From positions 39,990,001-40,054,000 of the forward strand of contig OZ024747.1 of NCBI GenBank assembly GCA_964016885.1: a stretch of 64,000 nt of DNA. The letters run 5' to 3'. The notes below the pieces were generated by a model that was given only the letters and a program-made list of their open reading frames with translations, had not been told where the DNA came from and made no database searches. Of the stretch, positions 4,405 through 62,226 are shown in pieces (position 1 is the stretch's first letter; every line of letters begins with the position of its first letter). This DNA comes from Eledone cirrhosa. Taxonomy: Eukaryota. The translations under genes were made by a program, and so were the position numbers.

Positions 4405-4486
<82 letters not shown>

Positions 4487-4487
4487 T

Positions 4488-4581
<94 letters not shown>

Positions 4582-4607
4582 TAAGCAGCAGTAGTAGTAG
4601 CAGCAGA

Positions 4608-4673
<66 letters not shown>

Positions 4674-4685
4674 TGTAGTAGTATC

Positions 4686-4731
<46 letters not shown>

Positions 4732-4733
4732 TC

Positions 4734-4785
<52 letters not shown>

Positions 4786-4835
4786 TCAGCAGCAGCAGCA
4801 GTAGTAGTAGTATCAGCAGCACCAGCACCAGCAGC

Positions 4836-4879
<44 letters not shown>

Positions 4880-4916
4880 TAGTAGTAGTATAAGCAGCAG
4901 TAGTAGTAGCAGCAGA

Positions 4917-4995
<79 letters not shown>

Positions 4996-5021
4996 TCAGC
5001 AGCACCAGCACCAGCAGTAGC

Positions 5022-5074
<53 letters not shown>

Positions 5075-8751: not shown

Positions 8752-8828
8752 TACCCACTCTCCAGAGCGTGAAATTAATAAACGTTCGTTGTACTGCCTC
8801 TCTGTTTTGTTCCTGTTCAAATTTTTCC

Positions 8829-8830
<2 letters not shown>
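8752..8830 (+). mobile_element. 3' tail of the PLE family seen at 10241-11936
   Basis: ccactctccagagcgtgaaa...ctgcctctctgttttgttcctgttcaaatttttcca is the reverse complement of about 10241-10316. Confidence 0.75.
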
Positions 8831-8874
<44 letters not shown>

Positions 8875-9216: not shown

Positions 9217-9277
9217 TTTATTATATATATTTAGAAGGTACTGTGTTGTTTTTTCAGTACGTCCTCGTCAGATAAAA
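9217..9277 (-). ncRNA. Degenerate hammerhead (family B)
   Basis: rc ttttat-CTGACGA-ggacgtactg..cagtaccttc-TAAA-tatat-ATA-ataaa. Confidence 0.6.
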
Positions 9278-9420
9278 TATATGATTTGATATATGACATA
9301 CCACTACGGTCTTGATATTTCAACTCCAGTATTGGCAGTGATTTATTTCATCAAATCTGAACATTTATATACCACAAATAATAATATGATAAACTTTAAA
9401 TATATATATATATATATATT

Positions 9421-9545
9421 TGTGAAGGCGTGTGGCTGAGTGGTTAGAGAATTGGATTCGGAATCGTAAGGTCGTGAGTTCAATTCCTGGACCGGGCGAT
9501 GCGTTCTGTCCTTGAGCAAGACACTTTATTTCACGTTGCTCCTTC
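9421..9545 (+). mobile_element. tRNA-derived CORE-like SINE, 3' truncated
   Basis: A box TGGCTGAGTGG, B box GAGTTCAATTC, CCTTGAGCAAGACACTT. Confidence 0.75.
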
Positions 9546-9750
9546 TACCTGGAGTTGCGACCGATAGATAGTATTAGCAATTGGAAAGACCAACGGAAAC
9601 ACTGTTTCGTCGGTCCGATTTGACGAAAGTCGATCGTTCCTTTAATATATATATATATATATATATATTTAGGTGTGAAGGTTCACCACTGGATAGAGCT
9701 GGTCATTCCGTATGGCCAATCTATATTATTATTATTATATATATATACAT

Positions 9751-10131: not shown

Positions 10132-10223
<92 letters not shown>

Positions 10224-10331
10224 GTTAAAAATATATATAATGGAAAATTTGAACAGGAACAAAACAGAGAGGCAGTACGAACAAAGGTTTATTAGTTTCA
10301 CGCTCTTGAGAGTGGGGTGGTGGTAGGGAAA

Positions 10332-10365
10332 GACGTTTCGGGCATAAGCCCTTCTTCAGGTGAAA
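10332..10365 (-). ncRNA. Minimal PLE hammerhead
   Basis: rc tttcac-CTGAAGA-a(gggc ttat gccc)-GAAAC-GTC; stem III is only the ACGT palindrome. Confidence 0.7.
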
Positions 10366-11684
10366 AGTGTGAGAAGAGAGTTCCAAGGGTGTGTAGGGGA
10401 GTGGTGGAGGGACATATAGAAAAAAGGGGGTGAGAGGAAACGGTACAAATGAAATTAAATATAAAAGCATAATAAAAATAAAAATAAACATGAAGTAAAA
10501 CAAGTGGTGGAAGGGTGTGGGGCGTGTAGGGGTGGTGGCTAGTGGAGTGGGGAGAGGGAGGCGGGGTGTCCGAGCGGGGAGGGCTGAAGGTGGTGTGTGT
10601 GTGTGTAGGTGTACGTGTGTGTGTGTATGTGAAAGTAAGAGTTGGGGGAAGAACGGGGTTGCATGTTCAGGAAAAGGTGTGTGTGGGGTGGGGTGTAGAT
10701 CGGTGTGTGTGTGCGTGTGTGGATGGGGAGGGGTCAGAGGGGTGGGGGAGCGGATTGCGGAGGCTGAGTGTGTAAATATGTGGTGGTACGCACGTGTGTG
10801 TGGTGTTTATACGTGTTGTGGATGCAGGTGGCGTGTGGGAAAACAATTTTGTTTTAGTGTATGTCCGTGGGTGAGTCCCTAAGGTAGTTCCGTAGAGGAT
10901 GTGGTGGCATGCTGGGTAATTTTCGTGTGATGTGGTTGATTCTTGGGAGCGATGTCCAATGTGTGTAATCCGTGGTTGGGTTGGTCGGAAGAGGGGAGAT
11001 GTGGGGTGCGCGCGCAACAGGAAGTGGTCAGAAGGTCGAGGCAGGAGGAGGGTTGTGTGTCTGTGTGTGCGGAGAGGTGGTCAGAGATTCAGGGCATAGC
11101 AGCAGTCGGGGAGAATGGTAAGTGAAGAAAGTCGGTGTCAGTGTGTGCGGAGGTGCGGTGGACGGGGGAGAGGATGGGTAGGTGTGAAAGTTGGGTTGAG
11201 GAGGGGGTGTGTGTATTAGTAGAGGTGTTAGTGGGGTCAGTGGTGGTAGGGTGTGTAGAGTGGGTGGTCTAAGTGGGTGTGTGTGTTCGTGTGCTTGGGG
11301 TTGGGGGGTGTTAGTGATATTAGTTGCGTGTAGAGTGGGTGGTGTAAGTGGGTGTGTGTGTTCGTGTGCGTGGAGTCGGGGGGTGGGTGTTAGTGATGTT
11401 AGTTGCGGGGTGGTGGGGGTGGATGTGTGGGGGTGAGAGTTAGTGGTGGTAGAAGGGTGTGTGTTTAGTGTGAGCGCGTGTATATATGTACCGGTGGGTG
11501 TGTGCGTGTGATAAGGGGAGGGGGGGAGAAAGGAGGGATGTTAGTATTGTTAGTTGGGGAAGGGTGATCGGGTGTGGGGTGGGGTGTTAGTATTATTAGT
11601 TGGGGGTGGGCGGTGAAAAGGAGGAGTGTGTTAGTGGTGTTAGTGGGGGATATGTGTGGGGGGAGGGGGGAGGGCTGTCGAAGG

Positions 11685-11936
11685 CTAAAGGAATAAGGGT
11701 GGGGAGTTCAGGCAGGGGGGAGTGTGGGTCTGTAGGGTGAAGATGGTCCGTTGTTCGACCCTGAGGAGGGTGGCGGGTGTTCCGTGACATTGGACTAGAC
11801 CACAGACTGTGAGGTGGTGCGTGGAATGTCCAGGGGCGCCAAAGTGGCGGGCGATGGGGGAACTACGACCGAGACGAATATCTCGGAGGTGTTCGGTAAA
11901 CCGGTCCGCCAGGCGACGTCCAGTCTGTCCGACGTA
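11685..11936 (-). pseudogene. GIY-YIG endonuclease C-terminal fragment of a PLE (not in ORF track)
   Basis: Manual translation, open 83 codons: YVGQTGRRLADRFTEHLRDIR...PIARHF...H...LTVCGL...EQRTIFTLQTHTPPCLN...stop. Confidence 0.85.
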
Positions 11937-12121
11937 TATATATATATATATATATATTTGTGGTATATAAATGTTCAGATTTGATGAAATAAATCACTGC
12001 CAATACTGGAGTTGAAATATCAAGACCCTAGTGGTATGTCATATATCAAATCTTATGTATGAATATATATATGTGCATACACATATATATATATATATAT
12101 ATATACCTAAATATCTCCCTC

Positions 12122-13139: not shown

Positions 13140-13142
<3 letters not shown>

Positions 13143-13829
13143 CCAGAGACCATTGACCATATAATTTCAATGTGCAGTCCTATAGCTCCAACCGAATACC
13201 TAAACAGGCATGACAGAGCTGCACAATACATACATTGGATAATGTGTAAGCATTTTGACCTGCCCCATCAAAAGAATTGGTGGGAGCATCAACCACCTCC
13301 CATACTTGAAAAAGATCACATCTCAATCTTGTGGAACTTTAGCATCCAAACAGACCGAAAAATAGATGCAAATAGACCTGATATAATATTGAAGGACTTT
13401 CAAAGGAGGGTATGCCTGCTAATTGATATGTCTGTTACAATAGACAAGAATGTATCTATAAAAACATTTGAAAAATTGAGCAAGTATAAGGACCTGGAGA
13501 TAGAAATTGGAAAAATGTGGAAATTGAGAACTAAAACAATACCAGTGGTTGTAGGCGCTCTGGGAATGATACCTATGGGGTCTAACGACTACTTATCGCA
13601 AATCCCAGGAAACCCGCGTATAGGAGAAATACAAAAGATAGTACTAATGGGAACTGCCCATATACTAAGGAAGATCCTGTCAATATAAGTACACCACAAG
13701 TCTAAACACTAAGGATGCATGTGTGAATATGTATGTTCTTTCTTGAACATGGCGGACCTTGTTGTCTCTTGAGGTCACTGGTTGTGACTTGGTGATAACT
13801 CGTATGAACATAAAGCAAGATAAATGCAA
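13140..13829 (+). mobile_element. R4/Dong-like RLE non-LTR retrotransposon, 3' end
   Basis: ETIDHIISMC..RHD..QTD..NRPDII..LIDMS..EKLSKY..IPVVVGALG (Zn-knuckle end plus PD-D/ExK endonuclease). (TAA)n on both sides; 3' UTR shared with 24474-24615. Confidence 0.85.
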
Positions 13830-49838: not shown

Positions 49839-49881
49839 TATATATATATATACATATACATGTATATATATATATATGTAT

Positions 49882-50054
49882 TTCCACCCCTCCTCCACAC
49901 ACCCTCGGAACTCTCTTCCTAAACTATTTTCTCCTGAAAAAGGGCCTATGCCCGAAACGCCCCCCCCCCCCCCCCACCCCCCACTCTCAAGAGCGTGAAC
50001 CTAATGTACCTTTTTTGTCTGCCTCTCTGTTTTGTTCCAGTCCAAATTTGCACT
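49882..50054 (+). mobile_element. 3' end of the PLE family seen at 10241, decayed hammerhead
   Basis: ctgaaaa-agggcctatgccc-gaaacgc..ccactctcaagagcgtgaa..ctgcctctctgttttgttcc. Confidence 0.7.
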
Positions 50055-53052: not shown

Positions 53053-53128
53053 CACTACTACTACTACTATACTACTACTACTACTACTACAGCTGCTGTT
53101 GTTGCTGCTGCTGCTGCTGCTACTACTA

Positions 53129-53179
<51 letters not shown>

Positions 53180-53696
53180 AACCTACTGCTCTTGTCACAG
53201 TTTCTGCTACTACTACTCTACTACTGTTGCTGCTACTACTGCTACTACTACTCCTGCTACTACTGTTGCTGCTACTACTCCTGCTACTACTGCTACTACT
53301 ACTCTACTACTGTTGCTGCTACTACTCCTGCTACTACTGCTGCTACTACTACTGCTACTACTACTGCTGCTACTCCCGCTACTACTTCTGCTACTATTGC
53401 TACTCTTACTGCTACTACTGCTACTACTACTGCTACTACTGCTACTACTACTGCTACTACTGCTGCTACTCCTGCTACTACTTCTGCTGCTAGTATGCTA
53501 CTATTGCTGCTACTACTACTGCTACTACGACTGCTACTACGACTGCTACTACGACTGCTACTACTGTTGCTGCTACTACTACTACTGCTACTACTGCTGC
53601 TACTACTGTTGCTGCTACTACTACTACTTCTGCTACTACTACTGCTACTACTACTGCTACTACTACTGCTACTACTACTGCTACTACTACTACTAT

Positions 53697-53754
<58 letters not shown>

Positions 53755-53978
53755 GTTGCTACTACTACTACTTCTACTACTACTACTGCTACTACTACTT
53801 CTGCTACTACTTCTGCTACTACTTCTGCTGCTACTACTACTACTACTGCTACTACTACTACTGCTACTACTACTGCTACTACTACTACTGCTACTACTAC
53901 TACTGCTACTACTACTACTGCTACTACTACTACTGCTACTACTACTTCTGCTACTACTTTTGTTGCTACTACTACTAC

Positions 53979-54030
<52 letters not shown>

Positions 54031-54255
54031 GCTACTACTACTACTGCTACTACTATTACTGCTACTACTACTTCTGCTACTACTTCTGCTACTACTACTG
54101 CTACTACTGTTGCTACTACTGTTGCTACTACTACTGCTACTACTACTGCTACTACTACTGCTACTACTGTTGCTACTACTGTTGCTACTACTACTGCTAC
54201 TACTACTGCTACTACTACTGCTACTACTACTGCTACTACTACTGCTACTGCTGCT
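53053..54255. repeat. (CTA)n/(CTG)n compound microsatellite
   Basis: Direct reading. Confidence 0.95.
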
Positions 54256-58367: not shown

Positions 58368-61249
58368 GTGCTAGCCCATCTCTCTCTGCTAGCCCATCTC
58401 TCTCTGCTAGCCCATCTCTCTCTGCTAGTGTAGCTCTCTCTGCTAGCCCATCTCTCTCTGCTAGTCCATCTCTCTCTGCTAGTCCATCTCTCTCTGCTAG
58501 CCTATCTCTCTCTGCTAGCCTATCTCTCTCTGCTAGCCCATCTCTCTCTGCTAGTCCATCTCTCTCTGCTAGTCCATCTCTCTCTGCTAGTCCATCTCTC
58601 TCTGCTAGTCCATCTCTCTCTACTAGCCGATCTCTCTCTGCTAATCCATCTCTCTCTGCTAGCCCATCTCTCTCTGCAAGTCCATCTCTCTCTGCTAGCC
58701 TATCTCTCTCTGCTAGTCCATCTCTCTCTCTGCTAGTCCATCTCTCTCTCTGCTAGCCTATCTCTCTCTGCTAGTCCATCTCTCTCTGCTAGTCCATCTC
58801 TCTCTGCTAGCCCATCTCTCTCTGCTAGCCCATCTCTCTCTGCTAACCCATCTCACTCTGCTAGCCCATCTCTCTCTGCTAGTCTATCTCTCTCTTCTAG
58901 TCCATCTGTCTCTGCTAGTCCATCTCTCTCTCTGCTAGCCTATCTCTCTCTGCTAGCCCATGTTTCTCTGCTAGCTTATCTCTCTCTGCTGGTCCATCTC
59001 TCTCTGCTAGTCTATCTCTCTCTGCTAGTCCATCTCTCTCTGCTAGTCCATCTCTCTTTGCTAGCCTATCTCTCTCTGCTAGTCTATCTCTCTTTGCTAG
59101 TCCATCTCTCTCTCTGCTAGTCTATCTCTCTCTGCTAGTCCATCTCTCTCTGCTAGTCCATCTCTCTCTCTGATAGTCCATCTTTCTCTGCTAGTCCATC
59201 TCTCTCTGCTAGTCCAATTCTCTCTGCTAGTCTATCTCTCTCTGCTAGTCCATCTCTCTCTGCTAGTCCAATTCTCTCTGCTAGTCTATCTCTCTCTGCT
59301 AGTCCATCTCTCTCTCTGCTAGTCTATCTCTCTTTGCTAGTCCATCTCTCTCTGCTAGTCTATCTCTCTCTCTGCTAGTCTATCTCTCTCTGTTAGTCCA
59401 TCTCTCTCTGCTAGTCCATCTCTCTCTGCTAGTCTATCTCTCTCTGCTAGTCTATCTCTCTCTGCTAGTCCATTTCTCTCTGCTAGTCTATCTCTCTCTG
59501 CTAGCCCATCTCTCTCTGCTAGTCCATCTCTCTCTGCTAGCCTATCTCTCTCTGCTAGCCTATCTCTCTCTGCTAGTCTATCTCTCTCTGCTAGCCTATC
59601 TCTCTCTGCTAGCCCATCTCTCTCTTCTAGCCTATCTATCTCTGCTAGTCTATCTCTCTCTGCTAGTCCATCTCTCTCTGCTAGCCCATCTCTCTCTGCT
59701 AGTCCATCTCTCTCTGCTAGCCCATCTCTCTCTTCTAGCCTATCTCTCTCTGCTAGCCCATCTCTCTCTGCTAGTCCATCTCTCTCTGCTAGCCCATCTC
59801 TCTCTGCTAGTCCATCTCTCTCTGCTAGTCCATCTCTCTCTTCTAGCCTATCTCTCTCTGCTAGCCCATCTCTCTCTTCTAGCCTATCTCTCTCTGCTAG
59901 TCTATCTCTCTCTGCTAGTCCATCTCTCTCTGCTAGACCATCTCTCTCTTCTAACCTATCTCTCTCTCTGCTAGCCCATCTCTCTCTGCTAGTCTATCTC
60001 TCTCTGCTAGTCCATCACTCTCTGCTAGTCCATCTCTCTCTGCTAGTCCATCTCTCTCTGCTATCCCATCTCTCTCTGCTAGTCCATCTCTCTCTGCTAG
60101 TCCATCTCTCTCTGCTAGTCCATCTCTCTCTGCTAGCCCATCTCTCTCTGCTAGTCCATCTCTCTCTGCTAGTCCATCACTCTCTGCTAGTCCATCTCTC
60201 TCTGCTAGTCCATCTCTCTCTGCTAGCCCATCTCTCTCTGCTAGTCTATCTCTCTCTGCTAGTCCATCTCTCTCTGCTTGTCTATCTCTCTCTGCTAGTC
60301 TATCTCTCTCTGCTAACCCATCTCTCTCTGCTAGTCTATCTCTCTCTGCTAGTCCATCGCTCTCTGCTAGTCTATCTCTCTGTGCTAGCCTATCTCTCTC
60401 TGCTAGCCTATCTCTCTCTGCTAGTCCATCTCTCTCTGCTAGCCTATCTCTCTCTGCTAGCCCATCTCTCTCTTCTAGCCTATCTATCTCTGCTAGTCTA
60501 TCTCTCTCTGCTAGTCCATCTCTCTCTGCTAGCCCATCTCTCTCTGCTAGTCCATCTCTCTCTGCTAGCCCATCTCTCTATTCTAGCCTATCTCTCTCTG
60601 CTAGCCTATCTCTCTCTGCTAGTCCATCTCTCTCTGCTAGTCCATCTCTCTCTGCTAGCCCATCTCTCTCTGCTAGTCCATCTCTCTCTGCTAGTCCATC
60701 TCTCTCTGCTAGCCCATCTCTCTCTGCTAGTCCATCTCTCTCTGCTAGTCCATCTCTCTCTGCTAGTCCATCTCTCTCTTCTAGCCTATCTCTCTCTGCT
60801 AGCCCATCTCTCTCTTCTAGCCTATCCCTCTCTGCTAGTCTATCTCTCTCTGCTAGTCCATCTCTCTCTGCTAGTCTATCTCTCTCTGCTAACCCATCTC
60901 TCTCTGCTAGTCCATCTCTCTCTGCTAGTCCATCTCTCTCTGCTAGTCTATCTTTCTCTGCTAACCCATCTCTCTCTGCTACTGTAGCTCTCTCTGCTAG
61001 CCCATCTCTCTCTGCTAGTCTATCTCTCTCTGCTAGTCCATCACCCTCTGCTACTCCATCTCTCTCTGCTAGTCCATCACCCTCTGCTAGTCCATCTCTC
61101 TCTACTAGTCCATCTCTCTCTGCTAGTCTATCTCTCTCTGCTAGTCCATCTCTCTCTGCTAGTCTATCTTTCTCTGCTAACCCATCTCTCTCTGCTACTG
61201 TAGCTCTCTCTGCTAGCCCATCTCTCTCTGCTAGTCCATCTCTCTCTGC
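58368..61249. repeat. 18-bp minisatellite array (about 160 units)
   Basis: (TCTCTCTGCTAGYCYATC)n with occasional +2 CT slips. Confidence 0.95.
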
Positions 61250-61497: not shown

Positions 61498-62226
61498 ATA
61501 TTAATAAATGGAAACTATATTTATAAAACCATAATTTTTTATTATATATATTTCAAGGGCAACCAAGGCAGATTATAGTGCGCTCTCATCAGATAAAATA
61601 CAGATTAGTTTTCATCATCATCATCATCATTTCATTTTACGTCCGCTTTTTCCCTGCTTGCAAGGGTGGGACGGGAACTGATTCTGGCTTGATTTCTACA
61701 GCTGGATGCCCTTCCTAACACCAACCTCATTTACAGTGAGTGCTGGGTGCTTTTTTGCCGTGGCACCTCCACGACCACTTTGAAGTGGAATGATATAGAC
61801 CCCAGTCTCTATCATCTCATTTCTACAGCTGAGTAAACTGGAGCAATGTGAAATAAAGTGTCTTGCCCAAGGAAACAACACATCACCCGGTCTGAGAATT
61901 GAACTCACAACCTTTCGATTGCAAGGCCAATGCTCTAACCACTAAGCCATGTGCCTCCATAAATATTGACATACCCGGAAAAAAAACAACCTCAACGGTT
62001 GAAATTCGCTGAACGGTTTAGGTTGTATTTTATCTGATGAAAGCGCACCATAATCTACCTTGGTTGCCCTTGAAATATATATAATAAAATAATTATGGTT
62101 TTATAAATATAGTTTCCATTTATTAATATATTGTATATTCACTCCACTAATCGGTTGAGTGCTTTATATCCGTTATAAAAATGTTTAAGCTTGTTGAATC
62201 CCAACAAATTAAATATAACCTCTGCA
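61491..62226 (+). mobile_element. Family D fold-back element interrupted by a SINE
   Basis: Arms 61491-61602/62024-62136; HHR 62027-62090: attttat-CTGATGA-..-GAAA-tatat-ATA-ataaaat. Confidence 0.8.
61613..61958 (-). mobile_element. Full-length tRNA-derived CORE-like SINE with (ATG)n tail
   Basis: A box TGGCTTAGTGG, B box GAGTTCAATTC, CCTTGGGCAAGACACTT, tail ATGATGATG. Confidence 0.8.

What the first reader, a model, noticed from the sequence alone, without database searches (positions are those of the whole stretch)
10241..11936. Hidden GIY-YIG Penelope-like element links the ribozymes to an autonomous partner
An uninterrupted 83-codon endonuclease C-terminus, absent from the ORF track, is followed by an about 1.4 kb strand-skewed (CA-rich) region with a hammerhead, all inside (TA)n. 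Solo tails of the family lie at 8752 and 49882. This is direct in-window evidence that PLEs insert in TA repeats here.
Basis: partly seen in the sequence, partly recalled or inferred. Interest (0 to 1): 0.7.

Follow-up and report, generated by a model that had tools for sequence, protein, structure and literature searches.

The report
Truncated Neptune-type Penelope retrotransposon copy
This is an ordinary, cut-short copy of a common jumping gene (a Neptune-type Penelope element) sitting in a TA repeat; its self-cutting RNA motif is likely broken, and the two neighbouring ribozyme families that were traced belong to other jumping-gene families.

Summary
On the minus strand, 11936-11688 encodes 83 uninterrupted residues of a GIY-YIG endonuclease C-terminus. 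A 1.45-kb C-rich 3' UTR and a minimal hammerhead motif follow, with TA runs at both ends. It is one 5'-truncated copy of a family with thousands of copies. Long copies show a unit of about 4.7 kb in partial tandem: RT, CX4CX2C linker, CCHH endonuclease, which fits Neptune-type PLEs. TA targeting is supported by the family, not by the window alone: TA follows 55 of 57 3' ends and precedes 35 of 59 5' junctions (background about 8%). The headline is not supported. The other hammerhead tails in the window share no DNA with this family, and the two I traced lead to their own Hydra-type PLE ORFs. None of 26 long copies has an intact ORF. The hammerhead has only a 2-bp helix I in the family, and this copy has lost the pair next to the cut site (3 genomic copies versus 841). 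The 49882 tail is an older sister subfamily; the 8752 tail has no hammerhead. The scan noted similar truncated PLE stubs elsewhere in this genome. New member of a known kind; low interest.

The parts
11685..11936 (-). C-terminal 83 codons plus stop of the GIY-YIG endonuclease, starting at the YVG motif; the element is 5'-truncated here
11935..11957 (.). TA run at the 5' junction; the first two bases (TA) could belong to the element or to the run
10239..11684 (-). C-rich 3' UTR shared by nearly all sampled family copies; repeated upstream as the pseudo-LTR in long copies
11253..11435 (.). About 75-bp tandem duplication inside the UTR
10330..10361 (-). Minimal type I hammerhead motif: intact core boxes, 4-bp helix II, palindromic ACGU; helix I is 2 bp in the family and broken in this copy
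10288..10293 (-). AATAAA, about 50 nt before the 3' end (polyadenylation-like signal; function untested)
10236..10243 (-). Fixed 3' terminus of the family, running into TATA
10192..10239 (.). Interrupted TA tract at the 3' end
8754..8831 (+). Solo 3' tail of a related subfamily, too short to include the hammerhead; separate insertion
49873..50053 (+). Solo 3' tail of an older sister subfamily (about 80% identical), hammerhead core damaged

Best explanation
The region is a 1.7-kb, 5'-truncated copy of an abundant Neptune-type Penelope-like retrotransposon, likely made by target-primed reverse transcription into a nicked (TA)n tract. Shown: long family copies carry RT, a CX4CX2C linker and a CCHH GIY-YIG domain in a unit of about 4.7 kb, with the 3' tail repeated upstream. 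Copies end at one fixed 3' site, are cut at scattered 5' sites, and sit in TA runs. Inferred from PLE biology: the RT-EN protein nicked a TA tract and started cDNA at an internal site of a longer-than-unit RNA. It stopped after 1.7 kb, and the cDNA end was joined to the TA tract, possibly through the 2-nt TA overlap. The copy lacks the 5' UTR and RT and cannot move by itself. Its hammerhead was minimal to begin with and has likely been inactivated by a private change beside the cleavage site.
For: 150 of 150 scored genomic matches (of 5211 candidates) are 88-100% identical to the peptide. Upstream frames give RT, thumb and linker. The UTR is shared across the 60 sampled copies, and the tail is found in 58 of 60. 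Exact tail-plus-TA junctions number 1176 and 1272 for two end variants; 14 read on into the 5' UTR. TA follows 55 of 57 parsed 3' ends and precedes 35 of 59 5' junctions, against 7-8% in flanks and 11% in the window. 5' ends scatter over 3.2 kb. Hammerhead-to-hammerhead spacing is 4.67-4.88 kb in 7 of 20 long copies. Hammerhead position 1.1 is G in 841 exact genomic copies and T, as here, in 3.
Against: The fragment alone has no Pfam match, and the whole domain stays under Pfam's cut-off. 24 of 59 5' junctions lack TA under the strict rule (18 of 59 within 30 nt); some are misplaced by internal deletions. No empty site was available to prove that the TA tract came first. The clade is assigned by motif comparison; the tree had no named Neptune or Nematis references. 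The 60 copies were the best endonuclease matches, so they under-sample other subfamilies.
Confidence: 0.92

Rival explanations
1. One reading: this family is the autonomous partner that mobilises the window's other hammerhead tails.
For: All are PLE-type tails in TA runs. Protein-less hammerhead elements are thought to derive from PLEs (10.64898/2026.07.22.740005, abstract and introduction read). A short fold-back family is joined to 5' junctions of this family in a few copies.
Against: There is no DNA similarity between five long copies and the other tails. Two traced tail families lead to their own Hydra-type ORFs. No intact ORF was found in 26 long copies.
Confidence: 0.07
2. The 3' (TA)n is not a target but a repeat tail added by RT slippage on the UAUA at the start site, telomerase-style.
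For: TA is more regular at 3' ends (55 of 57) than at 5' junctions (35 of 59). All 10 tandem junctions not selected by pattern continue with TATA.
Against: TA at scattered 5' truncation points is 7-fold above background, which a 3' tail cannot explain. Run lengths are similar on both sides. TA preference is reported for Naiad, Hydra and, as a hypothesis, Neptune (PMC8557442).
Confidence: 0.08
3. The peptide is a chance frame or a fragment of a host GIY-YIG gene.
For: No Pfam hit on the fragment.
Against: Thousands of dispersed copies continuous with a PLE RT; profile score 75.6 bits against 2.8 for shuffles.
Confidence: 0.01

Closest known systems
Neptune clade of C-terminal EN+ Penelope-like elements (Craig et al. 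2021, PMC8557442: passages, sections 11 and 15, supplement text of Figs S1-S2; Arkhipova 2006 not read, cited through Craig)
   Same: Single RT-then-GIY-YIG ORF; CX2-5CxxC linker; CCHH in the endonuclease; DKG motif; long spacer after the linker (24 residues here, about 25 in two Neptune rows, about 7-8 in three Nematis rows); PNYAN in RT motif 4 as in the zebrafish Neptune row; pseudo-LTR tandems; microsatellite bias.
   Different: A long (1.45-kb) and strongly C-rich UTR and ORF (C 47-49%, G 6-14%). A single 3' end site; inverted partner arms are rare (flagged in 1 of 60). I could not check Repbase or Dfam for an existing name.
Minimal type I hammerheads of metazoan PLE pseudo-LTRs (Cervera and de la Pena 2014, PMC4209133: abstract, results and discussion read)
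   Same: Conserved core, extra base between positions 9 and 10.1, G10.1-C11.1 pair, palindromic 15.2-16.2 without loop III, so dimer-dependent.
   Different: Helix I is 2 bp (as in the D. virilis variant) rather than 4-5 bp, and is absent in the window copy.
Poseidon PAc of Anolis (Frangieh et al. 2024, PMC11167929: main text read)
   Same: AT-rich targets; genomic 3' ends fall at an internal position of a read-through RNA; hammerhead not needed for insertion in vitro.
   Different: PAc starts at two sites without homology to the target and leaves a 30-40-bp tail. This family shows one end site, with TATA at the junction that could pair with the target.
Hydra clade PLEs (PMC8557442 section 11)
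   Same: C-terminal endonuclease, hammerhead, (TA)n insertion; this describes the parents of the 15507/15967 and 50178/50420 tails.
   Different: Hydra has a CxCX5C linker and no CCHH; the element of this finding has the canonical linker and CCHH.

Membership tests
EN+ Penelope-like element | RT and C-terminal GIY-YIG endonuclease in one ORF | tested here: met
   Family copies with 589-748-residue open frames spanning RT to endonuclease; fold ranks with I-TevI. The window copy keeps only the last 83 codons.
EN+ Penelope-like element | Partial tandem forming pseudo-LTRs | tested here: met
   L040, L079, L089, 7 of 20 long copies, 14 exact junctions. Absent from the window copy.
EN+ Penelope-like element | Hammerhead motif in the pseudo-LTR | tested here: met
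   Core intact in 46 of 52 parsed tails (9 of 61 not parsed); 4-bp helix II in 42. Motif only; no Rfam match.
Neptune clade | CX2-5CxxC linker between RT and endonuclease | tested here: met
   Present in 3 of 4 long own frames tested and in 64 of 66 homologues with an endonuclease core; cut off in the window copy.
Neptune clade | CCHH motif in the endonuclease | tested here: met
   both His are in the window peptide, the two Cys lie just beyond the truncation.
Neptune clade | Neptune rather than Nematis signature (long spacer, RT motif 4) | tested here: met
   By-eye comparison with the text of Figs S1-S2.
Neptune clade | RT phylogeny with named reference families | tested here: inconclusive
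   Quick tree of 35 rows without reference Neptune, Nematis or Poseidon sequences; own copies group with unnamed proteins at 60-65% identity.
Hydra clade | CxCX5C linker and no CCHH | tested here: not met
   The CxCX5C linker is seen instead in the parents of two other window tails.
Naiad clade | N-terminal endonuclease, DKA motif, no hammerhead | tested here: not met
   Endonuclease is C-terminal, DKG is present, hammerhead motif is present.
Active hammerhead ribozyme (window copy) | Helix I closing the cleavage site | tested here: not met
   0 bp in the window copy, 2 bp in 48 of 52 parsed tails; 3 versus 841 exact copies.
Active hammerhead ribozyme (family) | Self-cleavage | not testable with these tools
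   Needs an in vitro assay, as dimer and with protein.
Autonomous, currently active element | Copy with an unbroken ORF from start to stop | tested here: not met
   0 of 26 long copies (6, 20); a sample, not a full census.

The most novel reading that the evidence does not exclude
Neptune's (TA)n targeting is partly RNA-guided: a conserved UAUA at the single internal start site pairs with the nicked TA end, as a telomerase template does. TATA follows the end site in 10 of 10 unselected tandem junctions, across subfamilies whose neighbouring bases differ. Because several PLE families use the same TA ends, one break is sometimes filled from two different RNAs. A short fold-back family is joined to this family's 5' junction with little or no TA in 5 of 59 copies.
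Probability: 0.2. Interest if true: 0.55.

Novelty: new member of a known kind. Interest (0 to 1): 0.2.

Why it matters
As it stands it matters little: truncated PLE copies in TA repeats with minimal hammerheads are known. It is useful as a corrected annotation: a high-copy Neptune-type family, distinct from the Hydra-type parents of neighbouring ribozyme tails. It also gives a quantitative case of Neptune TA targeting, which the literature read here states as a hypothesis. If the UAUA seed proves to pair with the target, it would help explain PLE microsatellite bias, an open question named in PMC8557442 section 15, and would contrast with the homology-free start shown for Poseidon.

Tried and rejected
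Rfam, on the whole window and on 10240-10460: no hammerhead among the listed matches. Pfam and NCBIfam on the fragment: none or weak. PDB sequence search with a full-length homologue: 0 matches. Sequencing runs: no RNA holder listed; nothing was laid, so there is no statement on expression. A long-range helix I with the downstream GUGAAA was considered and dropped: it puts no NUH triplet at the cut site, and the pairing is lost in the sister subfamily. Monomer and dimer folding did not give a hammerhead fold for the window copy. The idea that 8752 and the main copy are arms of one event was dropped: their shared end variant has 1272 exact copies. The pair L157/L158 was taken for pseudo-LTRs but is a 4.8-kb tandem duplication. 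Template jumping to the fold-back family is a weak lead only: 6 of 59 5' junctions versus 2 of 56 3' ends within 200 nt, with 2.3 expected from merged TA tracts. An unmerged control gave 0.37 expected for 4 observed. Later insertion with target deletion explains these cases equally well. The careful ML tree did not finish; the quick tree was used. L064 was dropped as a duplicate of L063.

Full report
Observation. The minus strand from 11936 reads 83 codons without a stop, beginning at the YVG motif of a GIY-YIG domain. The fragment misses Pfam and touches an intron endonuclease model at E 0.11. It scores 75.6 bits on a profile of 66 homologous endonuclease ends, against at most 2.8 for 500 shuffles, and it is the only such match in six frames of the window. 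A complete domain from a family copy hits Pfam GIY-YIG below cut-off. Its confident model ranks solved GIY-YIG domains first, best E 0.003. Downstream lie 1.45 kb of C-rich sequence and a hammerhead-like motif at 10361-10330, with TA runs on both sides.

The family. A search of the window's genome gave 5211 candidates, and the 150 scored were 88-100% identical. I fetched the 60 best after the window copy. They share the UTR and, in 58 of 60, the tail. Upstream they extend for varying lengths into an RT ORF. The skew is therefore not a special region: ORF and UTR are both about 48% C on the sense strand. Long copies form partial tandems, with 4.67-4.88 kb between hammerheads in 7 of 20; the tail reads on into a 5' UTR of about 0.4 kb and the ORF. 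None of 26 long copies has an unbroken frame. Endonuclease DNA differs by 4.5% on average among the sampled copies, a biased set, and by 6.5% between the window copy and them. Several subfamilies exist.

Clade. DKG, the CX4CX2C linker and CCHH are present. The long spacer after the linker and the PNYAN of RT motif 4 match the Neptune rows, not the Nematis rows, of Craig et al.'s supplementary alignments. RT cores are 60-65% identical to the closest unnamed proteins and 52-61% to proteins named from sharks, a ray, corals, an anemone, snails, a tick and a crinoid. The tree lacked reference families, so membership rests on motifs. That the host is an octopus comes from an earlier AI note and my own impression; I did not test it.

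Target. TA follows 55 of 57 parsed 3' ends. The three left out were two copies without a tail and one parse failure that does show TA. Exact tail-TA junctions number 1176 and 1272 for two end variants. TA also precedes 35 of 59 scattered 5' junctions (41 within 30 nt), against 7-8% (14%) in flanks. This two-sided signal supports insertion into existing TA tracts. The window alone does not, since it has 256 TA runs. In tandem copies the end site continues with TATA in 10 of 10 junctions not selected by pattern. This may be a priming seed or the relic of an insertion into the element's own TATA.

Hammerhead. The motif fits the minimal PLE type described in PMC4209133. The core is intact in 46 of 52 parsed tails, and helix I is only 2 bp in 48. 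The window copy has T where the family has G next to the cleavage site: 3 exact copies against 841. It is therefore likely inactive. For Poseidon, the hammerhead needs protein and is dispensable for insertion in vitro (PMC11167929).

The link to other ribozymes. Five long family copies match only this copy and the two solo tails in the window. The 49882 tail belongs to an older sister subfamily; 4 of 30 of its loci reach an endonuclease about 80% identical. The 8752 tail is too short to hold a hammerhead. I walked two other tail families upstream through overlapping copies. Both end in ORFs with a CxCX5C linker and terminal CxxC and CxH motifs, the Hydra signature. They have their own parents. 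About five further tail families were not traced.

Mechanism. Shown: anatomy, fixed 3' end, scattered 5' ends, TA flanks, tandem pseudo-LTRs. Inferred from PLE biology: nicking of (TA)n by the linker-endonuclease, internal priming on a read-through RNA, early termination, and 5' joining.

Literature. Four searches returned no paper describing this family by name. The passages of an octopus repeat annotation that I read list Penelope-like families without using the word Neptune (PMC13282606). Also seen: passages of PMC3846280 and PMC12602865, and part 1 of 5 of the retrozyme preprint. Repbase and Dfam could not be checked.

Verdict. A real feature, correctly recognised as a PLE, but an ordinary truncated copy that does not explain the neighbouring ribozymes. 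New member of a known kind; interest 0.2.

Noticed in passing
window 9279-9379 and 11956-12056: A 101-bp inverted pair, 98% identical, brackets this copy and several other elements. The left arm runs into a hammerhead-like motif at 9271 (minus). It may be a two-armed insertion later split by insertions, or two separate stubs.
   Followed up: partly
window 15507/15967 and 50178/50420: Fold-back hammerhead tails that trace to two Hydra-type PLE families; long open frames in L206, L216, L236 and L241.
   Followed up: yes
L045, L051, L067, L078, L081 (5' junctions); window 36314 and 42958: An abundant short fold-back family without a detected hammerhead is joined to 5'-truncated copies of this family with little or no TA between. 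Its parent was not found among 44 held copies.
   Followed up: partly
window 10239-10265: The last 25 nt match one subfamily's end variant, while the UTR is closer to another (87-93% versus 74-80%); a possible mosaic or intermediate subfamily.
   Followed up: partly
window 13140-13688 (+): A 182-residue open frame that looks like the C-terminal restriction-like endonuclease end of a non-LTR element (label recalled; Pfam gave only a weak unrelated hit).
   Followed up: no
window 9420-9640: A SINE-like repeat with further copies at about 1547-1679 and 61840-61966 (label recalled).
   Followed up: no
window 58369-61249: An 18-bp tandem array of 159 copies; also trinucleotide arrays at 4405-5074 and 53054-54249.
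   Followed up: no
L037, L049, L050 (5' junctions): Other PLE-type tails, two with hammerhead motifs, abut 5' ends of family copies without a TA run.
   Followed up: no
L201 (G000:C3:187146500-187155500): A 4.8-kb tandem duplication at 99.9% identity, holding a PLE-like RT fragment head to head with a hammerhead tail.
   Followed up: partly
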